Positions 1 through 20,822 of a DNA stretch of 20,822 nucleotides are shown here, piece after piece. Source of the stretch: Fibrobacteria bacterium (GTDB lineage: Bacteria > Fibrobacterota > Fibrobacteria > UBA11236). Made by a program: the position numbers and the translations under genes. The notes beneath the pieces are model-generated. The model was not told the origin of the DNA. It did no database searches and was given only the letters and a program-made list of their open reading frames with translations. Position 1 is the first letter of the stretch, and each line of letters opens with the position of its first letter. Where the stretch lies: contig JAYTHY010000124.1 in NCBI GenBank assembly GCA_043732185.1, forward strand, positions 1 to 20,822. The letters are read 5' to 3'.

Positions 1-33
1 TTACATACCCAGTTATAAGGATGCCACTGGCAA
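1..33. repeat. 33-bp terminal direct repeat, left copy (circular-contig overlap)
   Basis: TTACATACCCAGTTATAAGGATGCCACTGGCAA at 1-33 is identical to 20790-20822. Confidence 0.97.
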
Positions 34-4030: not shown

Positions 4031-4768
4031 TCAATACCGCCAATCCTCATATCCAAGGGGCTGCGAATTAAGCTCCTGTCGATACAACCGCCACTTCGGC
4101 ATTTTCTTATCCATCACCGCCACAAACCGCGCATTATGCCGCCGCTCAATCAAATGAACGAGTTCATGCACAATCAAATACTCCAAGGACTGCGCTGGTT
4201 TCTTCGCCAATTCCAGATTAAGCCAAATCCGACAAGCCGAAGTATTGCAAGAGCCCCATTTCGTCTTCATCTTACGAATGCCCCATTCAGCGAGCTTCAC
4301 ACCCAATACCCGCTCCCATTTTTTCACTAAAAGGGGAATAGTCGCCTTTAACTGATCTCGATACCATTCCTGGAGCAAATGTTCTCGTTGCGCAACGGTA
4401 CTCCCAGCGGCAACCCGCATTAATATCGTAGAGCGATTCTTGAGAGTAACCGAAGCTCCTTTTTCCACTTCCACCACACGCAGTCGATGAGCACGGCCTT
4501 GAAAATAGTGCGTCTCACCGCTAACCATTTCACGCGCGGATTGACGGGGCTGGGCGGCGAACTGTTTTTTCTGGCGTTTGATCCAGCCGAGTTTATGAAT
4601 TACTGCCAAACGAATTGCCGAATCGCTGACTGACAAGGGTGCAGCCACGCGCACGCGACCCAAGGGTGGATATACGCCAAGGTGCAGATTTTTAATGTCC
4701 TTGCGGATGATTTGGACAGGAAATCCGCTGACCGTAATTTTATGCGGCTCAGTATTCTCAGTACTCAT
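4031..4768 (-). CDS. M48/YgjP (DUF45) family metal-dependent hydrolase associated with type I RM
   Basis: IRKMKTKWGSC and YLIVHELVHL..RHN.RF motifs; typical position overlapping the 3' end of hsdR. Confidence 0.93.
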   Translation of the reverse strand: MSTENTEPHKITVSGFPVQIIRKDIKNLHLGVYPPLGRVRVAAPLSVSDSAIRLAVIHKLGWIKRQKKQFAAQPRQSAREMVSGETHYFQGRAHRLRVVEVEKGASVTLKNRSTILMRVAAGSTVAQREHLLQEWYRDQLKATIPLLVKKWERVLGVKLAEWGIRKMKTKWGSCNTSACRIWLNLELAKKPAQSLEYLIVHELVHLIERRHNARFVAVMDKKMPKWRLYRQELNSQPLGYEDWRY

Positions 4769-7700
4769 TCTGGTTTTTCACCAATTCGAGAATTTTATTG
4801 GTAAGTACTTCTAAATCTTCGGCCAAATAGCCGTCATTGTCTTCGCCGAAATAACTTGTGCCTCCTGCACCTGCGGTTGCTCCTTGTTCACGAAAATTCT
4901 GAATGGCCGTTTTGATTAAAAGCCTGGTGGCCCGAATCTTAATGGCCGAGTTTTTCCAATCATCCTGCAAGTTTCCGCGAATGGCATTGTCGACGGCTAA
5001 GGCCAGGGCTTCATTCTGGAACAAGTTGTCAAACAGGGCTTTCTTGGCAGGGGAGTTCAAAGACTTGGGGTAGTCCGAAGCATTAGGACCGCCCTTGACT
5101 TGAAGTGTCAAAGTCACGATTTTTTCCAAGTATTTTTTATAGTCCAGAGCTCCCTTTTTGCGCTCCTGGATTAATGCGTCCAAGAGTTGGGACATCTTTT
5201 CATAGTACTTGGGATTGATGGGGTTTTCATCCAGAATTAATTTGCGGACATTGTTTTCAATGGTTTCGGCAACGGCCTGCTCACTTTTTTGAATGCCTTC
5301 CGGCAAAGCTTCGATAGCCTTGGCACCACGCTCTACTATCAACTGAATGAGTGACATATCCTCAAAAGCGGAAACTTTGACGCTATCTTCGGCCCGGATA
5401 TACGTGTCGATGAGATGTCGCATGGCAGGCTCGTATTGCTTAAGGTCGATGGCATCGCCGCTATGCATTTTGATTTGGGTTCGGAGGTTTTCGAAGTAAA
5501 TGACTTCTGCTTTGATGGCGGCCGCTTCGGTTTCGGAGAAGCCGGCCTCGGTCATTTCGTTGGCGATATTGGCATAAGCGCGAATTAAGGATGCGGTGTG
5601 CGTATACAGGGCAAGCCGTTGGGGTTCATTGGCGGCAAGCTGTTCCGCATTGCCATGATCTTTGGCCGAGAAATAATGGTAGAACGCAGCTTCGTCTTTG
5701 GGCGGTTCCACGGATTCGCACAGGGCGCGCATCGATTCGAGACAGGTTTCTAATTTTTCGCGGGCTTTTTCCAAACGATCTTCCAATAAACCGGCCACGT
5801 CTTCTTTGTCAAAACCGTCGAGAGCTTCGGAAGCATAGTCGTTGACGGCGCCTTCCAACTTTTTGAACAGGTCTTTATAGTCGACGATATAGCCATAGTC
5901 TTTATCGTCCCCGTCCAGGCGGTTGACGCGGCAGATGGCTTGGAAAAGACCGTGGTCGCGCATTTGTTTGTCGATATAGAGATAGGTGGCTGGAGGCGCG
6001 TCGAAACCGGTGAGGAGTTTATCGACCACGATGAGCAGCTTCATTTGGCCGGGTTCGTTGATGAACTTTTTTTTGACGGCCTTTTCAAATTCTTCGGCGC
6101 GATTGACGGCTGTTTCGGCGGGCTCGTTGAACCAATCGGCCAGCATTTGGCGATAGATTTCGTATTTGTCTTGTTTGTCCGTGACGCCTTCACCGGTTTC
6201 TTCGCCTTTGATATCGGCGGCGGCGGGCGTATAGGAGGTTACAATGGCGCATTTGCCTTTGAGCTCGGTTTTGGAAAACAGTTCGTAGAACTTGCAGGCC
6301 TCGTAGATGCTGCCGGAAACGAGCATGGCATTGCCATGTCCGCTGCTTAACCTGTCCTTGGTGGTCAAGTCCATGAGAATGTCGGCGACGATTTTACTGA
6401 GTCGTGATTGGCTGGATAAGACCCGTTGCAGGGTCCCCCACTTTTGTTTGAGCAGCGCCTTGGCAATAGGCGTCAAACCCTTGGTCTTGCCTTCGAACCA
6501 TTGATCGATTTTATCCTGCGAGGTGATATTCTGATCGATATCGCGAGCCTCGTAGCGCAAGTCCAGGATCACGCCGTCGCGAACCGCCTCATCGAATTTA
6601 TAGGTATGAATATAGGTGCCGAAAACTTCTACGCTTTTTTGCTTGTCGGCTTTTAAGAGTGGTGTCCCCGTAAATCCGATGAACATGGCATTGGGTAAAA
6701 TGGCTTTCATGGCCCGATTGAGGTCACCGCTTTGAGTACGATGGCATTCGTCCACGAAGACATACAGGTCGCCTTTGGCCGAAAAGCCATGCGGCAATTT
6801 CTGTATGGCATTAAGAAATTCAGACGTGTCATCAGACTTACCCTTAATGCTACCCTTGCTATTCCTGGAGTCGTCATCCTCCTTGCCGCCAAACTTATGC
6901 ACCAAGGAGCAGAGCAGCCATTTTTCATTGGCATTCAGCTTGGCGATGAGGTCGCTGCCGTTTTTAGTACGATAAATGGCTTCTTCCACACCGAAGAATA
7001 CCTTTTCGATTTGGTCATCCAACTCAGTTCGATCGGTAATGATCAGTACGCGGGAATCGGTGACATTTTCACGAATCCATTTGGCCAGCCACACCATGAT
7101 AAGGCTTTTTCCAGATCCCTGGGTATTCCAGATGATACCCCCTTCACGCTTGCGAATGCGGACCTGCGAGCACTTTACGGCAAAGTACTGGTTTTGCCGA
7201 CACAGTTTTTTGATGCCCGCATCGTAGACGATAAAGTCGTGGAAGATTTCCAGTAGGCGCGGTTTGGCGCAGATTTGCAACAGAGCCCGATCGAGGCGAT
7301 TTTCAACCAGGCTGTCTTCTTTCCAATCCAGCCAATATTTTTCCTTGGTTTCGATACTTGCATAACGCAGACCTTCGGTATCATTGCCGGCCATAAGGAT
7401 TTGGATGGTCGAGAAAAAGGGCTCGATGAATTCCTTTTTCTGATTGTCCAAGTTTTGCCGAATCCCCTCCGAAACGGAAACGGTGGAACGCTTAAGCTCC
7501 AGCACTCCCAAGGCAATGCCATTTACATAAAGCACGATGTCCGGACGCTTGGTATAAGCCTTGGCATTGGAGGCGAGGATAGTGACTTCTTCTGCGATGG
7601 CAAAATGATTTTTTTCAGGATGGTCCCAATCAATGAGAAAAACCGTTTGTTTGTTTACGCCGATTTCTGGGCGAACTTCAATGCCATAACGTAGCAGTCC

Positions 7701-7955
7701 GTAAACGGCGCGGTTACGGTCATAGATGGATTTGCCGGTATCGCCTACGGCCTTTTCGAAAATGTAGAGGGCACGGGATATCAAGTCTTCCGCATGGCCT
7801 TGTTTGCGAAGCCAGGTGCGGAGAAGCTCGACCTCCAAATTGGCATTGCCGGATCGGTCTTTCCAATCGCCCAGGTATTGATAGTCTAAGGATTCTTGGA
7901 ATAGCTTGACCACGCGGTCTTGGGTCTTCTTTTCGTTTTGGCCGATGGGACTCAT
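4758..7955 (-). CDS. hsdR: Type I restriction enzyme, restriction subunit R
   Basis: 1065 aa; nuclease motif RPDIVLYVNGIALGVLELK, Walker A TQGSGKS, DECHR, FTGTP, LLTGFDAP, QAICRVNR. Confidence 0.97.
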   Translation of the reverse strand: MSPIGQNEKKTQDRVVKLFQESLDYQYLGDWKDRSGNANLEVELLRTWLRKQGHAEDLISRALYIFEKAVGDTGKSIYDRNRAVYGLLRYGIEVRPEIGVNKQTVFLIDWDHPEKNHFAIAEEVTILASNAKAYTKRPDIVLYVNGIALGVLELKRSTVSVSEGIRQNLDNQKKEFIEPFFSTIQILMAGNDTEGLRYASIETKEKYWLDWKEDSLVENRLDRALLQICAKPRLLEIFHDFIVYDAGIKKLCRQNQYFAVKCSQVRIRKREGGIIWNTQGSGKSLIMVWLAKWIRENVTDSRVLIITDRTELDDQIEKVFFGVEEAIYRTKNGSDLIAKLNANEKWLLCSLVHKFGGKEDDDSRNSKGSIKGKSDDTSEFLNAIQKLPHGFSAKGDLYVFVDECHRTQSGDLNRAMKAILPNAMFIGFTGTPLLKADKQKSVEVFGTYIHTYKFDEAVRDGVILDLRYEARDIDQNITSQDKIDQWFEGKTKGLTPIAKALLKQKWGTLQRVLSSQSRLSKIVADILMDLTTKDRLSSGHGNAMLVSGSIYEACKFYELFSKTELKGKCAIVTSYTPAAADIKGEETGEGVTDKQDKYEIYRQMLADWFNEPAETAVNRAEEFEKAVKKKFINEPGQMKLLIVVDKLLTGFDAPPATYLYIDKQMRDHGLFQAICRVNRLDGDDKDYGYIVDYKDLFKKLEGAVNDYASEALDGFDKEDVAGLLEDRLEKAREKLETCLESMRALCESVEPPKDEAAFYHYFSAKDHGNAEQLAANEPQRLALYTHTASLIRAYANIANEMTEAGFSETEAAAIKAEVIYFENLRTQIKMHSGDAIDLKQYEPAMRHLIDTYIRAEDSVKVSAFEDMSLIQLIVERGAKAIEALPEGIQKSEQAVAETIENNVRKLILDENPINPKYYEKMSQLLDALIQERKKGALDYKKYLEKIVTLTLQVKGGPNASDYPKSLNSPAKKALFDNLFQNEALALAVDNAIRGNLQDDWKNSAIKIRATRLLIKTAIQNFREQGATAGAGGTSYFGEDNDGYLAEDLEVLTNKILELVKNQNEY

Positions 7956-13146: not shown

Positions 13147-14406
13147 TTAAATTAAACGGGTTTTGCCGGTGAGGAGCTCTTGCATCATGCCTTGTTTGAG
13201 GGCGCGGGTTTTGTCGCGGCGTTGTTCGAGGGCAGTGAGTTCGGTGTCCATGTCGGAGAGGACGGTTGCAATGGAGGCTTGTTCGGCACGAGATGGTGGG
13301 AGGGAAAGTGTTATTAGCCCCAAATTATCTTGGTTAATGTTGGTGTTTGCGCTAACAGAGCTTAAACTGATCAACCTCTTCCTAAAACCTTCTTCGTAAA
13401 AACAATGCTTTTTAAAACCAAGGTCTAAAACACCTCGATCACGAAACCTTATGAGAAACCCAGAGTAAACTGTCTCGGGTAGGTCATTCTCGATTACAGC
13501 TGTGAGACCGACTCCAGATGGTTTAACTGATGAACGAATAAAAACAACGTCACCACTTCTTAGGTCATAAGTCTGCTTATCATTTTCAGAAGAATTGATA
13601 AGTCCAAATCCTTCGTTTTTCGATATGACCGAAACACCAAACACATCCATTAAATTTACAAAGGGACTACCGTGGCCGAAATCCTTGGCGTCCTTATTTA
13701 TTCCATTCTTGAATTCACCAATTTCTCCCAGTTTTTGTTCTACCCACTCCCCCTGAAATCCCGGCAACCTCTTCTGCCCGGTGAGAAGCTGCTGCATGGC
13801 GGCCTGTTTGAGGTCGCGTTTCTTGGCGATGAGTTGGTCCAGTCCGGCGATCAGGGCATCGACATCCGACAGGGCGGTGGCGATGGCGCGTTGTTCGGGG
13901 AGGGGGGGGATAGGAAGAGAAATCCCACCGATTTGGGATAAGGATAAAAATGGTTGCGCCCCACCGTTCGACAACTCTTGTGTGATTTTATCTTTTCTAT
14001 TCCAAAGTGAGTAGTTGATGAAATGGCCATCCGTTTTCTTTGCGTTTGGCTTAAGGAGTGCGACATTTTTTAGGCTAAACTCGAACTCGACATTTACAAC
14101 TGCGGTTGTCGCGACACCAGCACCAATGTTTACAAATAAAACATCATTCTTTTCCGGGTTACATCTATTATAAATTATTTTATGGTCGAACAAGGAAAGG
14201 TACAAGCAATTTTCAAAATCAATATGGTTATCCTTCACGTGAATTGCAGTTAAAAATGGAACACCAGATCGAACGGGCTTAGGTGTGTCATGGGTGCCGT
14301 CCGTGATTTTTTTACAGCAATCTTTAAGAATTTGAACTTCCCACTCCGCCGGAATCACTCCCACTTCAGTCTTCTTATACCCCTTGGGAATCTTCGTCTC
14401 ACTCAT
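13147..14406 (-). CDS. hsdS: Type I restriction-modification specificity subunit S
   Basis: Start MSETKIPKGYKKTEVGVIPAEW after GGAGG; two TRDs; repeated conserved blocks PP..EQ.AIA..LSD.D and KQ..MQ.LLTG..RL. Confidence 0.96.
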   Translation of the reverse strand: MSETKIPKGYKKTEVGVIPAEWEVQILKDCCKKITDGTHDTPKPVRSGVPFLTAIHVKDNHIDFENCLYLSLFDHKIIYNRCNPEKNDVLFVNIGAGVATTAVVNVEFEFSLKNVALLKPNAKKTDGHFINYSLWNRKDKITQELSNGGAQPFLSLSQIGGISLPIPPLPEQRAIATALSDVDALIAGLDQLIAKKRDLKQAAMQQLLTGQKRLPGFQGEWVEQKLGEIGEFKNGINKDAKDFGHGSPFVNLMDVFGVSVISKNEGFGLINSSENDKQTYDLRSGDVVFIRSSVKPSGVGLTAVIENDLPETVYSGFLIRFRDRGVLDLGFKKHCFYEEGFRKRLISLSSVSANTNINQDNLGLITLSLPPSRAEQASIATVLSDMDTELTALEQRRDKTRALKQGMMQELLTGKTRLI

Positions 14407-14438
14407 GTTAACCTCCACGTGACCGCGTCCGTACTCTT

Positions 14439-14540
14439 CGCGCAAGGGATGCGGCGGGCAGCGGGCGTTAGCCTGCTGGTCCCGAAGGGACGGGAGCGAT
14501 AGCGTACCCCAGAGCAAGCCCGACCCGTAGGGGTGCGCCC
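14439..14540. repeat. GC-rich multi-hairpin (REP/MITE-like) element immediately upstream of hsdS
   Basis: Plus-strand hairpins: CAGCGGGC-GTTA-GCCTGCTG (14459-14478, one G-T pair), GTCCC-GAA-GGGAC (14479-14491), CCC-GTA-GGG (14524-14532). Confidence 0.6.
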
Positions 14541-14878
14541 ACTAAGAGAATGGGAACTTTTCCTGTGAGCGAAATTTTCGATATATCGCCCGAAACCGAG
14601 GAGTGGCGCAGAAATTTTAAATACGGCGGAATCGCCACAAATAGAACGGGATGGCAATTGGCCCGGGGCCTGCTGACCAATTAATGAGAAGGGACATTCA
14701 GGATTCATTGGCAATTCTTTAGACAGCGTCTGAAGAATTTGTGCAAGGGAGGGCTGCACTTTTTGAAGAATGGCCAGATTATGCCCCCATTGAGTTACAG
14801 CCAATTGCGAAACAGGCTGTTTCGTAATGGATTGGGTGATAATCCAGGTCTTGTAGCCCGCATTTTTCTGTAACAACC

Positions 14879-14900
14879 TCATACCGTAAACCCCGTCTTC
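14879..14900 (-). repeat. hsdM-3'-end motif, copy 3
   Basis: Minus strand GAAGACGGGGTTTACGGTATGA versus GAAGATGGGGTTCACGGTATGA at 17644-17665 (2 mismatches in 22). Confidence 0.85.
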
Positions 14901-14929
14901 GACCACCTCGGATTGATTGTAACCGGGCT

Positions 14930-15343
14930 TCATGTTTTATCCGATGATAGTGGGCGTCGCGCGTTTTGCTCTCGGGCATGTTCGATGGCCTGGTGCAGCA
15001 GTTTCACCTGTTCGGCATCGGCCGAGGCGCATAAGATGAGACCGATGGGGGAATCCTCGCTTTGGGCACACTCGTGTTTATCCAACCAGCGGAGGTCAAG
15101 TTCCAGGAGCACGCCCTCGATTTCACGAAGGATGGCATTTTCCAGATCGCGCTCGCTATAGGCCCCTTTGAGACCCATTTCAGCATAGAATTCACGGGCA
15201 AGCGGGTCTTTGATAGGGATAAGTTCGATAAAATGGCTCCAGCTCAATTCTTGCGACAATGTCGCAAGAATTTGTTTCTCGTGCATCACCCGGCTACCAT
15301 CGAGGGTAGACTGTCTTCGGTGGACCCTGGAGATGGCCTTCAC
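14930..15343 (-). pseudogene. Internally deleted DUF1016/YhcG-like gene
   Basis: Collinear fragments LSWSHFIEL..AREFYAEM / YSERDLENAILREIE..LLEL / PIGLILC joined in frame; lacks the DLxFY...ELK nuclease core present in the two neighbours. Confidence 0.75.
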
Positions 15344-16485
15344 GAATTCACGTCCCCGCCCCGATTCTGAGAAAGCTCAGCCTCGATGCGCTCCAGCTGC
15401 TGCTTCAACTCTTCCTTGGAGGGCAAGTACAGTTGATACTTTGATGCGAAAATATTCGCATTCGCGGGCAAGGTCAATTCCACCAGTGCGTCGCTTTTTC
15501 GATGGCACAGTACAATGCCGATGGTCGGAAGTTCGTCTTCCGCTTTCACATAGCGGTCGAAATAATTGACGTACATCTGCATTTGGCCCAGGTTCTGGTG
15601 CGTCAATTTATCGCGTTTCAAATCGATCAAGACATAGCAGCGCAGGAGGCGATTATAAAATACCAGGTCCACGTAAAAATGATCGTTGTCGAAGGTGAAC
15701 CGCTTTTGACGCGCTTCAAAGAGGAAGCCCTTACCCAGTTCCAGCAGGAAGGTTTCCAGTTTATCGATTATGGCGGATTCCAAATCCTCTTCCGAGTAGG
15801 CCGGTTTTTCTTCGAGCCCCAGAAACTCCAGCACGAAAGGATTTTTAATGATGTCGGAGGCTTTTTCGATGACCAAGCCCTTTTTGGCGAGGTTGTGGAT
15901 CTCGTCCTTGTCGCGGCTCAGGGCCAGTCTTTCGTAGAGGGAGCTGGCAATTTGCCGTTCGAGTTCACGGACACTCCAACTCGCAGCGGTTGCTTCGATT
16001 TCGTAGAAACGGCGTTCTTCAAGGTTATCCAAAGTCAGTAGGGTGACGTAATGGGACCAGCCTAAGGTGAAGTACTGGAGTAAAGCTTCGGAAACAAAGC
16101 GCATCTTTTCGTCGCCCGGCCTAAGGGTCGACGCCAATTCAACAGACGTTGTCTGTTGAATCTGTTCGAGGGGGAAAGAGTGGGCGGAAGCCGTTTGGCC
16201 GATGTCCTTGTAGCCTTGATAAAAAGCACGGCTCTTTCTGAGATTAACCGGCGAAACACCTTTAATTCCTTTATTTTTTAACGCTTCGGATAGATTTTCA
16301 ATTAAGTGGTTCCCGTATTCAGCCCGATCCACGCCGTGTTGTTCAAACTCCACCAAATACCACCCAAATAGCCAATTTCGGACGACCAGATAGGTATCTA
16401 CGGTACGGCTGGCCCGGTTTTGCAGCTCTTGATGAGCCTGCCCACACAAGTCAACCAACTGCCGGAATTCGAATGCATCGCTCAT
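15340..16485 (-). CDS. DUF1016 / YhcG family PD-(D/E)xK nuclease-domain protein
   Basis: LGWSHY, RRFYE, WSVRELERQI, KNPFVLEFLGL, FLLELGKGF.F..RQ, VDLVFYNRLLRCYVLIDLK, GQMQMY; probable start ATG 16485. Confidence 0.93.
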   Translation of the reverse strand: MSDAFEFRQLVDLCGQAHQELQNRASRTVDTYLVVRNWLFGWYLVEFEQHGVDRAEYGNHLIENLSEALKNKGIKGVSPVNLRKSRAFYQGYKDIGQTASAHSFPLEQIQQTTSVELASTLRPGDEKMRFVSEALLQYFTLGWSHYVTLLTLDNLEERRFYEIEATAASWSVRELERQIASSLYERLALSRDKDEIHNLAKKGLVIEKASDIIKNPFVLEFLGLEEKPAYSEEDLESAIIDKLETFLLELGKGFLFEARQKRFTFDNDHFYVDLVFYNRLLRCYVLIDLKRDKLTHQNLGQMQMYVNYFDRYVKAEDELPTIGIVLCHRKSDALVELTLPANANIFASKYQLYLPSKEELKQQLERIEAELSQNRGGDVNS

Positions 16486-16503
16486 ACTGTGAACCCCATC
16501 CTT
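16482..16503 (-). repeat. hsdM-3'-end motif, copy 2
   Basis: Minus strand AAGGATGGGGTTCACAGTATGA; its GATGGGGTTCACAGTATGA core differs from the hsdM copy at 1 of 19 positions and supplies the ATG of the downstream DUF1016 gene. Confidence 0.88.
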
Positions 16504-16531
16504 TCTAGGTGCGACCACAAAACAAAAGGCG

Positions 16532-17647
16532 TCACGGCCGAGTCTCCTCGTCTAAATCCTGAGATAATTCCGCCTCGATTTCTTCAATACTCGGAAGGGA
16601 GCTTTTCAGGTCATCGGGCAGAGACTGCTGAATTTCCTTCTCCCAATTTGCTACTCCAATAGGATTACCAAATCCAGCAAGGGAATATTCTACTACCATC
16701 TTGTTTTTTGATTTGACGAGTAAAAGGCCGATGGTTGGCTTGTCATCCGGGTGTCGCATCAAATCATTCACAACATTGCAATACATGTTCAGTTGGCTCA
16801 CATGCCCTGGTTTAAAGTGGCCAGACTTCAACTCTACTACCACAAAACAGCGGAGTTTGAGGTGATAGAAAAGCAGGTCCAGCGAAAAATTGCTCCCACC
16901 TACTTCCATGAGTACCTGACGACCTACAAAGGCAAAACCTTGCCCCAATTCCAATAGGAATTTCTGAACATGGTCTATCAATTTTTGTTCAAGCTCCGCC
17001 TCACGTCGGGTATCCGCTGTCCCTAGGAAATCAAAAACATAAGGATCCTTAAATGCCTGGGCGGTCATGTCCGATTCCAAGGGGGGCAAGGTCGTTTTGA
17101 AATTGGTCAGCGCCGCCCCAGCTCGTTGATGCAACCGGCTTTCAATTTGATGGACTAACATGTCTTTGCCCAAACCCAGTTCTAGGGCTTTTTGCGCATA
17201 CCAGAGCCGGGTTTCGGGATCCTCAAGCCGGTCCAATAAGGTGATATTACTACGCCAGGGCAATAGTGCAACGGTGCGTTGCACTATTACAGGGTCGGGC
17301 CAGGCTTCGGCGAATTTCCGCATATATTTAAGGTTTCGTGGGGAAAACCCATGCATCTGAGGAAAGGCTTGACGCAAATCATAGGAAAGTCGGTCGATCA
17401 CCTTTGCTCCCCAACCCTCTTGCTTTTGCCTCTGAAGGATTTCGTTTCCAAAATCCCAATACATTAGAATCATTGCTGTACTTGCAGACAAAACGGCTTT
17501 TAGCCGCTCCTTGGCAATGCGCTCTTTTAAATTTTCCAAAAGGAGAACATAGCCGTCAGGTAATGCCAAGGTTGGCATTGGGGCTGGCAAAATAACTTCC
17601 GGTTTTGATCGGCCAAGGTGGTGGCGCTCATGCTTCTTTTTGTTCAT
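16532..17647 (-). CDS. DUF1016 / YhcG family PD-(D/E)xK nuclease-domain protein
   Basis: YWDFG..I...Q...GWGAKVIDRLS.DL, GFSPRNLKYMRKFA, KDPYVFDFL, FLLELGQGFAFVGRQ, DLLFYHLKLRCFVVVELK; ATG 17647 overlaps the hsdM stop (ATGA). Confidence 0.94.
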   Translation of the reverse strand: MNKKKHERHHLGRSKPEVILPAPMPTLALPDGYVLLLENLKERIAKERLKAVLSASTAMILMYWDFGNEILQRQKQEGWGAKVIDRLSYDLRQAFPQMHGFSPRNLKYMRKFAEAWPDPVIVQRTVALLPWRSNITLLDRLEDPETRLWYAQKALELGLGKDMLVHQIESRLHQRAGAALTNFKTTLPPLESDMTAQAFKDPYVFDFLGTADTRREAELEQKLIDHVQKFLLELGQGFAFVGRQVLMEVGGSNFSLDLLFYHLKLRCFVVVELKSGHFKPGHVSQLNMYCNVVNDLMRHPDDKPTIGLLLVKSKNKMVVEYSLAGFGNPIGVANWEKEIQQSLPDDLKSSLPSIEEIEAELSQDLDEETRP

Positions 17648-20106
17648 ACCGTGAACCCCATCTTCTCCAGATGCCCGGCCACCCGCTTTTCCAACTCCTC
17701 CACCTGACTCAGCACCTGCGGCAACGGCGTCCCATACCGCTCCGCCAATTCCCGCACGCGCCCGGTCAAAGCCTGCGACACGCGATCCAATTCCGATTGC
17801 ACCGAAGCCCCCAAGGTGGCCAACCATTTGTCCTCGACCACCAAGGCCTTGATATCCGCTTCGCTCAACTTACCGTATTGCGCCGCCACCTTTTCTTCCA
17901 AGGCATTCTGTGCTGCTTTGACTTTCTTAGAGGCCGTGGCCGCCTGCTCGACCAAATCAAGATACGCTTCCAGCACCTTGCGTTCATCTGCCGCCGTCTT
18001 ATCCGTCTTGATCGTTTTCAATCGCGCGGCCATGGAGCCTTTGGCGATCTTGCCCTCCTCGATCACTTCCGCCATCAGACCCTCATCGCCACCATGCTCT
18101 TCCTTAAGCTCTTCCAACTTTTGATTGAGGCCGGCTGCTTCCGCTTCCAGTCCTTCAATAGCCGCAGCCTCATTCGCAAAATACCGGGCGACTAACAAGG
18201 GCATGGGAATCAGTTCCGCTTTGTACTTGAGTTTGCCGATGGTGTAGTCGGCCTGTTCCTTGGTTTTCTTTTCCTTATCCTCGATGATTAACCTGGGCTT
18301 GGCCGCTTCCTTCCAGCCGTCGCTGACAATCATGTACACATCATCCTGCATGGTTTCCGACCACATATCCATCAGGTGCTGGTACATATCGTATGTGTCG
18401 ATGAGCGGGGCCTCACGGAAAGTTTCCAAGAGGGATTCGGATAGGGTTTCGATCAGCGCCTTGGGCTTGCCCCCGATGGTGATGCCTTTGAGCTTGGGCA
18501 GATGCTTGCTTTTCCAGGTAGTAAACAGGGCCGTTACCCCCTGATTAAAGGTCGTGAACTCGGCATGGCCGAAGATGGCGGCCTTGACTTCGCTGATCGG
18601 CACCTTGAGCATGGCGTATTCGGGCCGGTCCGCTTTTTTCAAAATGGTGGAGCGGACGCCGGGAAAGACTTTCCAGAAGCGGTCGAGGGCGTCGATGTCG
18701 CGCCGGGGAATGCCGCCGCGCAAATGGCCGTCGATATCTTGGATATCTTCCGGTTCGGTACTGTCGATATAGCGCGGGAGGTTGAGGTTGAAATCATTGC
18801 CTTCGATTTCGGCCATGGGCACCATGCGCGAGTACCGGGGCAATTCCAATTGACGCGTGAAGGCATCGACGATGAGGTGGATGTCTTGGGCGCGCAGGCG
18901 ATTTTTATTCCCGTCTTTTAGAAAACCTTTGGAAGCGTCGATCATGAATAGGCTCTTGCGGGCGGCGGATTGTTCTTTATCCAGTACGATGATGCAGGCG
19001 GGAATGCCGGTGCCGTAAAAAAGATTGGCGGGAAGTCCAATGATGCCTTTGAAATAGCCACGACGCAATATGGTTTTGCGGATGGCAGCTTCGGCTCCAC
19101 CTCGGAAGAGTACCCCATGCGGGAGAATGACCGCGCCCTTGCCCGTGCTCTTGAGCGTAGCGAGGATATGGAGGAGAAAAGCATAGTCGCCGTTTTTATC
19201 GGGTGGGATTAAAGTCTGGTCCCCGAATTGGAAGCGTTTGAATTCATCTTCCTCGGGATTGAAACCATTGCTCCAGGCCTTGGTGGAGAAGGGCGGATTG
19301 GCAACGACGAAATCAAAGGTCTTGAGCTTTCCGTCTTTGTCTTTGAAATGCGGGGTGGAGAGGGAATTGTCTTGCCAGATTTCCGCGGAAGGGCAATCGT
19401 GCAGGATCATGTTCATCTTGGCCAAGGCCTTGGTGGCATTGTCCATTTCTTGTCCGTAGATTGTGAGGTCATGGCCCGTACTGCCTTTGGCTTCATCATG
19501 AGCCTTGAGCAAAAGCGATCCGGAACCGCAGGCAGGGTCGTGAATAGTTTGCTTGGCGCCGGTGGCCTCGCCCATGCCGATGACCTTGGCCATGATTCGC
19601 GAGACTTCCGCTGGCGTATAGAACTGGCCTTTGCTCTTGCCGGATTCGGTGGCAAAGTGGCGCATCAAATATTCATACGCGTCACCGAGGATATCATCGC
19701 CCTCGGCGCGATTGCCTTTGAAGTCCAGCGCAGGGGTATTGAAAATGCCGATGAGGTTGGAGAGGCGGTCGACCTTTTCCTTTTCCTTGCCGAGCTTGTC
19801 GCTGTCGTTGAAGTCGGCCACGTCGATGATGCCCTTGAGGTCATTGGCTTCGGCGAGTTTGCCTATGATCTTGTTGATCTTGTCGCCGATTTCCTTGTCG
19901 CCTTTGAGGGCGACCATATCCGCAAAGCTGCCGCCCTTGGGGACTTCGAGCAGGGCATCGCGCTGGCCCATGTATTTGTCGGAGACGTATTTTACGAAGA
20001 GGAGGACGAGCACGTAATCTTTGTATTGGGACGCATCCATACCGCCGCGGAGTTCGTCGCAGCTTTTCCAGAGGGAGCTGTAGAGGTCGGATTTTTTGAT
20101 GGCCAT
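17644..20106 (-). CDS. hsdM: Type I restriction-modification methyltransferase subunit M (m6A)
   Basis: LWKSCDELRGGMDASQYKDY, GQFYTP, DPACGSGSLL, VANPPF, LPHGVLFRG; 820 aa with a long C-terminal extension. Confidence 0.97.
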   Translation of the reverse strand: MAIKKSDLYSSLWKSCDELRGGMDASQYKDYVLVLLFVKYVSDKYMGQRDALLEVPKGGSFADMVALKGDKEIGDKINKIIGKLAEANDLKGIIDVADFNDSDKLGKEKEKVDRLSNLIGIFNTPALDFKGNRAEGDDILGDAYEYLMRHFATESGKSKGQFYTPAEVSRIMAKVIGMGEATGAKQTIHDPACGSGSLLLKAHDEAKGSTGHDLTIYGQEMDNATKALAKMNMILHDCPSAEIWQDNSLSTPHFKDKDGKLKTFDFVVANPPFSTKAWSNGFNPEEDEFKRFQFGDQTLIPPDKNGDYAFLLHILATLKSTGKGAVILPHGVLFRGGAEAAIRKTILRRGYFKGIIGLPANLFYGTGIPACIIVLDKEQSAARKSLFMIDASKGFLKDGNKNRLRAQDIHLIVDAFTRQLELPRYSRMVPMAEIEGNDFNLNLPRYIDSTEPEDIQDIDGHLRGGIPRRDIDALDRFWKVFPGVRSTILKKADRPEYAMLKVPISEVKAAIFGHAEFTTFNQGVTALFTTWKSKHLPKLKGITIGGKPKALIETLSESLLETFREAPLIDTYDMYQHLMDMWSETMQDDVYMIVSDGWKEAAKPRLIIEDKEKKTKEQADYTIGKLKYKAELIPMPLLVARYFANEAAAIEGLEAEAAGLNQKLEELKEEHGGDEGLMAEVIEEGKIAKGSMAARLKTIKTDKTAADERKVLEAYLDLVEQAATASKKVKAAQNALEEKVAAQYGKLSEADIKALVVEDKWLATLGASVQSELDRVSQALTGRVRELAERYGTPLPQVLSQVEELEKRVAGHLEKMGFTV

Positions 20107-20367: not shown

Positions 20368-20822
20368 ATGAACTTAGATCCGTTTAAATCCCTTGACGGC
20401 TTTAACCCCAAAGCCCCCGATGACATATTTACCAAGCCCAAACCTAAGTTCGGTGGCGGTGGCGGTGGCGGTGGTGGCGGAACGGGCCGACCGCGCCGAC
20501 CTGAACCTGAACCGGAGTTAGAGCCCCTTGACATTCCAGTCGAGCCCGTCGCCGCTGAGCCGGAAAAGCCCAAGCCCTCCGTCACCCTTCGCAACCCAAA
20601 ATGGGAAGTGGAAAAAGTGGGATTTAATGAGGAGACGGACATCTCCGTTGAAGTGGACCTGCCGGAAAAGATCGCCCATAGGACCAAAATTGCTTTTGAA
20701 CTTTTTGCTAAAACACCGGATGGGCCAAGTTTAATCGTAAAAGGTGAAGGGCATGCCAAGGATGGCAAGGCTATCTGTCGCATACCGGTTTACATACCCA
20801 GTTATAAGGATGCCACTGGCAA
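20368..20822 (+). CDS. 5' part of the OmpA-like / PG-binding / metallopeptidase protein, continuing across the circular junction
   Basis: Open frame from ATG 20368 (MNLDPFKSLDGFNPKAPDDIFTKPKPKFG10TGRPRRPEPEPE...CRIPVYIPSYKDATG) to the window end, in frame with position 2 onward; absent from the ORF track because it has no stop in the window. Confidence 0.88.
   Translation, partial: MNLDPFKSLDGFNPKAPDDIFTKPKPKFGGGGGGGGGGTGRPRRPEPEPELEPLDIPVEPVAAEPEKPKPSVTLRNPKWEVEKVGFNEETDISVEVDLPEKIAHRTKIAFELFAKTPDGPSLIVKGEGHAKDGKAICRIPVYIPSYKDATG
20452..20481 (+). repeat. GGN microsatellite encoding Gly10
   Basis: GGTGGCGGTGGCGGTGGCGGTGGTGGCGGA. Confidence 0.9.
20790..20822. repeat. 33-bp terminal direct repeat, right copy
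   Basis: Identical to 1-33. Confidence 0.97.

What the first reader, a model, noticed from the sequence alone, without database searches (positions are those of the whole stretch)
14879..17665. Cassette-like array between hsdM and hsdS: the hsdM 3' end is repeated three times, each heading a DUF1016 unit
Seen on the minus strand: GAAGATGGGGTTCACGGTATGA (17665-17644, the true hsdM end), AAGGATGGGGTTCACAGTATGA (16503-16482) and GAAGACGGGGTTTACGGTATGA (14900-14879). Each ends in ATGA whose ATG opens a DUF1016 gene or fragment (translated as EDGVHGM, KDGVHSM, EDGVYGM). Units nearest hsdM are intact and distal ones are decayed, and the paralogs are very divergent, so this is not simple duplication. 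Inference: serial, polarised capture of YhcG-family genes at the hsdM stop, with the motif acting as recombination site plus start signal. This would be an integron-like accessory array built into a type I RM operon. The role of DUF1016 in defence is poorly defined.
Basis: partly seen in the sequence, partly recalled or inferred. Interest (0 to 1): 0.78.

Follow-up and report, generated by a model that had tools for sequence, protein, structure and literature searches.

The report
Stacked gene-end scars in restriction operon
Inside a bacterial restriction-modification operon, two leftover copies of the end of the methylase gene sit between stacked nuclease-family cargo genes; close relatives carry these genes one at a time, so the stack likely formed when related operons were spliced together by ordinary recombination, not by an integron-like machine.

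Summary
The repeat is real: three copies, and no others within 4 mismatches in the 4.46-Mb genome. Copies 2 and 3 are the last 31 and 22 nt of hsdM alleles. Each is preceded by about 30 nt of what normally follows a cargo gene. Same-genus genomes hold the single-unit forms: hsdM-duf1-hsdS (G006) and hsdM-duf2-hsdS (G007); G002 has the same stack. So the slot is variable and the stack is not a local duplication. An integron is not supported: no attC, no linked integrase, and scar lengths vary (22, 31, 60, 121 nt; 4 of 144 loci). The best reading is Rhs-like displacement: a related operon recombines into hsdM at one end and is joined by microhomology at the other. A chain of six 4-nt stop/start overlaps runs from hsdM to hsdS through neutrally evolving remnants, which suggests that keeping hsdS translated filters which events survive. 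Corrections: there are four DUF1016-type units for three copies, and the unit after copy 3 is assigned by motif only. The scan has noted such scars, and the in-gene DUF1016 palindromes seen here, on other DNA before.

The parts
17644..20106 (-). hsdM, type I methyltransferase, 820 aa
   Evidence: Pfam N6_Mtase and HsdM_N; PADLOC MTase_I
17644..17674 (-). Copy 1: live hsdM 3' end; its stop overlaps the duf1 start (ATGA)
16532..17647 (-). duf1, intact DUF1016/YhcG gene, 371 aa, under purifying selection; sole insert in G006 (90% identical)
   Evidence: PADLOC PDC-S02
16482..16535 (-). 17-codon bridging ORF: degraded start of the downstream spacer element fused to copy 2 (16512-16482, hsdM frame); overlaps the duf1 stop and the duf2 start
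15340..16485 (-). duf2, intact DUF1016/YhcG gene, 381 aa, about 27% identical to duf1; sole insert in G007 (90% identical)
14930..15343 (-). Remnant 3: DUF1016 gene of a third clade lacking its first ~110 codons and three internal in-frame stretches (about 60, 54 and 26 codons, the middle one holding the nuclease core); still one open frame of 137 codons; no hsdM copy at its head
14901..14933 (-). Relic of an hsdS 5' end (about 10 codons), start of the 176-codon bridging ORF 14933-14403
14879..14900 (-). Copy 3: last 22 nt of an hsdM allele
14556..14882 (-). Remnant 4: probable DUF1016 debris holding 2 clear and 2 weak palindromes; family assignment inferred from motifs only
   Evidence: no hit
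14410..14555 (-). Spacer element before hsdS, shared with G002, G006, G007, G011 and G019 (77-92% identical); an open frame that ends on the hsdS start; single copy in the genome; no Rfam match; folds no better than shuffles
13147..14406 (-). hsdS, 419 aa; target-recognition domains differ from those of G002 and G006
17262..17288 (-). In-frame 27-nt palindrome in duf1
16137..16161 (-). In-frame 25-nt palindrome in duf2
15246..15272 (-). In-frame 27-nt palindrome in remnant 3
4758..7955 (-). hsdR of the same system, 1065 aa

Best explanation
Copies 2 and 3 are leftover 3' ends of hsdM alleles, likely left behind when related type I R-M operons carrying different cargo genes were spliced together by the cell's ordinary recombination. 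Shown: in this hsdM subfamily the hsdM-hsdS junction is a variable slot, and cargo often starts on the hsdM stop; relatives hold duf1 alone or duf2 alone; each scar reads [cargo][about 30 nt of what follows cargo in single-unit loci][last 22-31 nt of hsdM][next cargo]. Inferred: an incoming fragment hsdM'-X pairs with the resident hsdM by homology, and its other end is joined at a few matching bases just upstream of the resident hsdM stop (homology-facilitated illegitimate recombination, or an equivalent two-step route through a circle or tandem duplication). X is added next to hsdM and the resident cargo is pushed downstream with the old hsdM tail. Also inferred: the tail is kept because it holds the ribosome-binding and stop/start signals of the next gene. 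Events and later deletions that keep a chain of coupled open frames down to hsdS survive, because hsdS is needed for methylation and restriction. Displaced cargo then decays by in-frame deletion.
For: Single-unit forms in same-genus genomes: G006 (hsdM 88%, duf1 only) and G007 (hsdM 93%, duf2 only); G011 (unpublished) also has duf2 only; G019 has a KilA-N gene, G059 and G057 a Fic gene, G056 nothing. 36 of 144 loci with a located hsdS have an insert; 26 of these 36 have a start codon on the hsdM stop, as do 62 of the other 123 loci. The DNA between the duf1 stop and copy 2 aligns with the spacer start of G006 and G007 up to a GCACC and then switches to hsdM sequence. Copy 3 is preceded by an hsdS head. 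4 of the 5 differences between copies 1 and 2 over 30 nt are synonymous in the hsdM frame and the fifth is K to R, as expected of another allele. duf1, duf2 and remnant 3 fall in three separate clades (quick tree). Other hsdM-tail relics have other lengths: 121 nt in L063, 60 nt in L046. hsdS-head relics occur in L061 and L230. In the last 150 nt of hsdM, informative sites side with the duf1 carrier G006 18:8, against 118:205 in the rest of the gene (Fisher p=0.0014). Six successive 4-nt overlaps link hsdM to hsdS in the window and G002, although the remnants evolve neutrally (pN/pS 0.044/0.043 and 0.050/0.039, against 0.006/0.093 for duf1).
Against: No recombination event was observed, and the scar geometry is symmetric: a donor anchored downstream (spacer or hsdS) gives the same pattern with opposite polarity. 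The hsdM-end signal depends on the cut chosen (p 0.001-0.04 over five cuts) and is weak in G002 (p 0.02-0.15). The duf2/remnant 3 joint has no hsdM tail. Only 10 of 36 insert loci have a complete 4-nt overlap chain, so the chain is not required in general. In-frame deletions can also come from codon-aligned microhomology. The lack of new stops among 43 substitutions between the window and G002 is not significant (about p 0.2, my rough estimate). G006 and G007 are other species, so they model the parents and are not the parents.
Confidence: 0.7

Rival explanations
1. Two or more whole R-M islands first came to lie in tandem (for example through the flanking ompA-family repeats), and internal deletions then removed everything from just after one cargo gene to just before the next hsdM stop. 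The scars are deletion joints, and order says nothing about age.
For: It gives the same joint structure. The contig begins and ends in the same 33 nt of a multi-copy ompA/peptidoglycan-binding gene family, and a second hsdM-cargo-hsdS-hsdR locus lies beside another ompA copy on C136. Jackson et al. propose a circular intermediate for rhs.
Against: It needs at least three whole islands followed by deletions that twice end within 31 nt of the hsdM stop. The decay gradient and the G006-like hsdM end fit addition next to hsdM. No second hsdR or hsdM body remnant was found in the window.
Confidence: 0.18
2. DUF1016 proteins drive their own capture. The N-terminal domain would bind the palindrome inside DUF1016 genes and the nuclease would cut at or near the slot, so that repair from an incoming operon installs the new gene at the hsdM stop.
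For: All identifiable units of this stack are DUF1016-type. 39 of 66 intact genes carry a palindrome scoring 10 or more, against 4 of 198 synonymous shuffles; in 33 of 66 it is centred 6 codons before a conserved Trp. DUF1016-type remnants in the slot keep a palindrome: window remnants 3 and 4, G021, L061, L112, L155, L230. Both intact genes keep a D...(E/D)xK motif.
Against: The slot takes Fic, KilA-N, PIN, TIR, AbiEii, HEPN and other genes too, and the relics in L063 and L046 flank no recognised DUF1016 gene. Several remnants were recognised by the palindrome itself, which biases the count. Remnant palindromes carry lineage-specific mismatches in the window and G002. No binding or cleavage data exist here.
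Confidence: 0.08
3. The motif is a site-specific recombination site of an integron-like cassette array acted on in trans by a recombinase.
For: Repeated boundary, one gene per unit, intact units proximal. The genome has an integron integrase above the TIGR02249 cut-off on C132 and seven tyrosine-recombinase matches.
Against: No R-box pair 52-337 nt apart in the array, no GTTRRRY core in the copies, only 46 nt between duf1 and duf2. No integrase among the 18 window ORFs scanned. Scar lengths vary and scars are rare. Single units in relatives are not flanked by two copies. No copy-to-copy joint in 4 runs.
Confidence: 0.03
4. The motif is only a generic translation-initiation sequence, or chance.
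For: It contains a G-rich stretch 7 nt before an ATG and pairs with a generic anti-Shine-Dalgarno motif at -5.9 to -8.6 kcal/mol (motif recalled, as the 16S end was not found in the assembly).
Against: No other site within 4 mismatches in 4.46 Mb. The copies keep the hsdM reading frame with synonymous changes.
Confidence: 0.01

Closest known systems
C-terminal displacement at rhs loci (Jackson et al. 2009, PMC2935791; passages read)
   Same: New variable DNA is added at the 3' end of a conserved gene by recombination. The incumbent is shunted downstream with a core fragment of variable length, and distal units degenerate.
   Different: In rhs the swapped part is the tip of the same protein and core fragments are long. 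Here whole separate genes are added behind the stop, the relic is 22-31 nt, and the displaced gene can stay intact and translationally coupled.
Genes embedded in type I R-M, BREX, DISARM and Hma operons ('guilt-by-embedding', Payne et al., bioRxiv 10.1101/2024.01.29.577857, passages read; PrrC in EcoprrI, PMC12707154, passages read)
   Same: Co-oriented cargo between core hsd genes. Both intact genes match the PADLOC candidate family PDC-S02. DUF1016 between type I core genes is on record (PMC9881135, passages read).
   Different: The main text of the Payne preprint has no occurrence of 'recombination' or 'PDC-S02' and the passages seen give no insertion mechanism. Its supplementary tables could not be seen. 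No test of DUF1016 defence activity was found in my searches.
Homology-facilitated illegitimate recombination (as summarised in PMC6382021, passages read; the primary paper PMC122324 was not held)
   Same: A RecA-dependent homologous anchor at one end plus an illegitimate joint at a few bases at the other.
   Different: Shown in naturally transformable Streptococcus, Acinetobacter and Pseudomonas; nothing here shows competence or the route of DNA entry in this organism.
Integron cassette arrays (features recalled)
   Same: Linear stack of single genes that appears polarised.
   Different: No attC, no attI, no linked integrase, no fixed crossover.

Membership tests
Integron cassette array | attC sites (complementary R boxes, folded bottom strand) after each cassette | tested here: not met
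   No R-box pair 52-337 nt apart in 14300-17800; no GTTRRRY core in the copies; 46 nt or less between units
Integron cassette array | Integron integrase and attI next to the array | tested here: not met
   No integrase in 18 window ORFs; the one IntI over cut-off is on C132. Arrays without an integrase exist (recalled), so this alone is not decisive.
Integron cassette array | Fixed crossover point and excision of units as circles | tested here: inconclusive
   Relic lengths 22, 31, 60 and 121 nt; no copy-to-copy joint in contigs of 4 runs, but contigs drop rare variants
Type I R-M system | hsdM, hsdS and hsdR open and co-oriented | tested here: met
Type I R-M system | Methylation and restriction activity | not testable with these tools
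   No methylome or assay available
R-M-embedded cargo genes | Co-oriented non-core genes between core genes, variable among homologous systems | tested here: met
   36 of 144 loci with inserts of many families; close relatives differ
DUF1016/YhcG (PDC-S02) | DUF1016_N plus YhcG_C domains above Pfam cut-offs, with PD-(D/E)xK motif | tested here: met
   Met for duf1 and duf2. Remnant 3 passes DUF1016_N only and lacks the nuclease core. Remnant 4 passes neither.
DUF1016/YhcG (PDC-S02) | Nuclease or anti-phage activity | not testable with these tools
   Low-confidence model (mean pLDDT 59); only weak matches to PD-(D/E)xK nucleases, none at E<=0.001; no solved relative by sequence
3'-end displacement arrays (rhs type) | Fragments of the conserved gene's 3' end, of variable length, each followed by a different variable module | tested here: met
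3'-end displacement arrays (rhs type) | Incumbent module displaced downstream by the newcomer, shown across strains | tested here: inconclusive
   G007 (duf2 only) has the closer hsdM, and the hsdM end leans to G006, but there is no within-species series

The most novel reading that the evidence does not exclude
DUF1016/YhcG genes are self-mobilising cassettes: the protein recognises the covarying palindrome written inside DUF1016 genes and uses its nuclease to force capture of new family members at the hsdM stop, building an integrase-free, ordered array whose scars and remnants are kept in frame as a ribosome relay to hsdS.
Probability: 0.08. Interest if true: 0.82.

Novelty: new variant of a known kind. 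Interest (0 to 1): 0.4.

Why it matters
How defence genes come to be embedded inside R-M operons is described mostly as a pattern; the passages I read give no mechanism. This locus, with its single-unit counterparts in sister species, shows the joints base by base and points to ordinary additive recombination plus a translational-coupling filter. That is directly testable: place stops in the 17- and 176-codon bridging ORFs and measure HsdS. It also offers two intact, purifying-selected DUF1016 genes for the untested PDC-S02 defence prediction. It is not a new cassette machine, and the scan has recorded similar scars in other genomes, which limits the surprise.

Tried and rejected
Position-weight scans for hsdM tails in 127 loci found only L063 and window copy 2 at the stricter setting; the looser one added background hits. 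The reverse-strand control in the last part was faulty and is not used. The search for an intact relative of remnant 4 found none among 70 candidates. Rfam: no match at E<=1 in 14200-17800. The spacer element is not unusually structured (z -0.56) and is single-copy, so a REP, attC or RNA-gene reading was dropped. attC scans were negative. Structure prediction of Duf2 was low-confidence, with the palindrome-coded residues in a pLDDT<50 stretch; fold and PDB searches gave nothing significant. No RNA holder was listed among public runs. Only 4 of the 20 listed runs were laid on the region; the others were not examined. One search used wrong G006 coordinates and is replaced. The careful tree did not finish; the quick tree is reported. 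Literature: ten searches listed no paper whose title or abstract start describes hsdM-tail scars or DUF1016 coding palindromes; the library lacks most subscription journals.
Full report
Observation. They are the only sites within 4 mismatches of copy 1 in the 4.46-Mb genome; chance expectation in the 3.3-kb interval is about 1e-5. Contigs assembled from public runs bridge the joints, including a divergent strain and a second study for copy 2, so this is not an assembly artefact (4 of 20 listed runs laid). The window is the whole contig C124 of a genome whose same-genus relative is labelled Fibrobacterota in a protein record.

Anatomy, minus strand. hsdM (20106-17644), duf1 (17647-16532), a 17-codon ORF ending in copy 2 (16535-16482), duf2 (16485-15340), remnant 3 (15343-14930), a 176-codon ORF (14933-14403), hsdS (14406-13147). 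The 176-codon ORF is made of an hsdS head relic, copy 3, remnant 4 and a 146-nt spacer. duf1 and duf2 have both DUF1016 domains and match PADLOC candidate PDC-S02. Remnant 3 is 74-77% identical to intact proteins over what is left, and has lost its start and three in-frame stretches including the nuclease core. Remnant 4 is DUF1016-like by motifs only. In the hsdM frame the copies read HLEKMGFTV*, HLERMGFTV* and KTGFTV*; 4 of 5 differences between copies 1 and 2 are synonymous.

Close relatives. Of 61 genomes searched, six besides the window's own hold an hsdM at least 69% identical. G002 (97%) has the same stack with a different hsdS. G007 (93%) has duf2 alone and G006 (88%) duf1 alone, each followed by the same spacer and hsdS. 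G021 (84%) has a 33-codon palindrome-bearing ORF and then a duf2 homologue; its contig ends there. G019 has a KilA-N gene. G011 has duf2 alone; this genome is unpublished and only this supporting case and one spacer match rest on it. In G006 and G007 two genes that are under 30% identical sit between the same borders. The window's DNA after the duf1 stop follows the G006/G007 spacer start up to GCACC and then turns into hsdM sequence. Copy 3 is likewise preceded by the first codons of an hsdS. Both scars therefore have one form: cargo, about 30 nt of its normal downstream neighbour, an hsdM tail, next cargo.

Wider survey. From 160 loci plus 26 fetched from the phylum, 159 including the window had a locatable hsdM stop. 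hsdS was found in 144: 108 direct junctions and 36 with an insert. I scanned 43 of the 59 insert ORFs; families include DUF1016, Fic, RhuM, KilA-N, PIN, TIR, AbiEii, HEPN, DUF6883 and ASCH, and many have no hit. Among 144 loci with at least 500 nt downstream, a second hsdM end occurs in four: window, G002, L063 (121 nt) and L046 (60 nt), that is three lineages. hsdS-head relics occur in L061 and L230. Scars are thus recurrent but rare and of variable length.

Origin and order. duf1, duf2 and remnant 3 lie in three separate clades, each nearest to a gene elsewhere (quick tree of 74 rows), which excludes local duplication. Against G002, hsdM, duf1 and duf2 show purifying selection, while the two remnant ORFs are neutral. 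The window's hsdM is closer to the duf2 carrier G007 overall, but its last 150 nt side with the duf1 carrier G006 (18:8 against 118:205, p=0.0014; p 0.001-0.04 over five cuts; G002 p 0.02-0.15). This and the decay gradient fit duf1 arriving last with its own hsdM end. The scar geometry alone cannot give the order.

Coupling. Following only 4-nt stop/start overlaps from the hsdM stop reaches hsdS in six steps in the window and in G002, three in G006 and two in G007, where unresolved bases lie in the spacer. The chain passes both scars and both remnants. Ten of 36 insert loci have such a chain. Translational coupling of hsdM and hsdS is known for EcoKI (PMC3510504, abstract start seen). I infer that joints and deletions which keep the chain open are favoured because hsdS must be made. 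About seven joints are in frame, roughly 5e-4 if each had a one-in-three chance (my estimate), but codon-aligned microhomology also favours in-frame deletions, so this is suggestive only.

Integron test. No attC-like R-box pair lies in the array, even allowing 337 nt because earlier scan notes describe very long attC sites in this genome. The copies lack the GTTRRRY core (recalled consensus), and there are only 46 nt between duf1 and duf2. The genome's integron integrase is on another contig. No contig joint skips between copies.

Palindromes. Each DUF1016 gene carries an in-frame DNA palindrome whose sequence differs between genes: 39 of 66 genes score 10 or more against 4 of 198 synonymous shuffles, and 33 of 66 are centred 6 codons before a conserved Trp (many rows are close kin). 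Remnant 4 holds several, and slot remnants in G021, L061, L112, L155 and L230 keep at least one. I noted this before looking at earlier findings; the scan has 23 findings with these words. Their function is untested. They give the novel case but are not needed to explain the scars.

Comparison. The locus works like rhs C-terminal displacement (PMC2935791, passages), applied to genes embedded in a type I R-M operon (bioRxiv 10.1101/2024.01.29.577857, passages; supplements unseen, and they may list PDC-S02). DUF1016 between hsd genes is on record (PMC9881135, passages) and is described only as a predicted nuclease (PMC4316617, passages). The likely chemistry is homology-facilitated illegitimate recombination (PMC6382021, passages). 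My ten literature searches listed no description of hsdM-tail scars. The scan itself has noted them in several other genomes.

Verdict. Real, and well resolved because the single-unit forms exist in sister species. A new variant of a known kind: displacement scars in an embedded-cargo slot, not an integron. Interest 0.40.

Noticed in passing
window 17288-17262, 16161-16137, 15272-15246, 14828-14804, 14739-14713; 66 DUF1016 genes in held loci: In-frame, position-fixed, sequence-variable DNA palindrome in DUF1016 genes (39 of 66 against 4 of 198 shuffles); remnants in the slot tend to keep it.
   Followed up: partly
window 1-33 and 20790-20822: The contig starts and ends with the same 33 nt inside an OmpA/peptidoglycan-binding gene, also the ends of C47 and C80. 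The R-M island lies between tandem paralogues or is a circle. A second type I locus on C136 also abuts such a gene.
   Followed up: partly
window 14555-14410: 146-nt spacer before hsdS shared by six genomes of the family; an open frame overlapping the cargo stop and the hsdS start in G006. G059 and G289 have longer bridging ORFs in the same place.
   Followed up: partly
window 13133-7952: The hsdS-hsdR interval is a second cargo slot: a 72-aa fragment, ClpP-like protease, an 84-aa ORF, HTH-IrrE (PADLOC RmrA, opposite strand), a NucS-like fragment that is intact and about 308 aa in G006, and SoFic.
   Followed up: no
L061:3251-3590; L194 (G021) first 100 nt after the hsdM stop: Short ORFs behind hsdM made of little more than DUF1016-type palindromes (three to four in L061, an archaeon), in frame and overlapping the hsdM stop.
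   Followed up: partly
L195:4075-4926 (G019): The KilA-N cargo gene also appears to carry an in-frame palindrome (seen by eye; not tested).
   Followed up: no
window 14406-13147 against L191, L192, L193: hsdS target-recognition domains differ (about 40% identity) between genomes whose hsdM is 88-97% identical, with conserved spacers 83-97% identical: domain swapping.
   Followed up: no
G000:C132:898-1830: Integron integrase above the TIGR02249 cut-off, not linked to this array.
   Followed up: no
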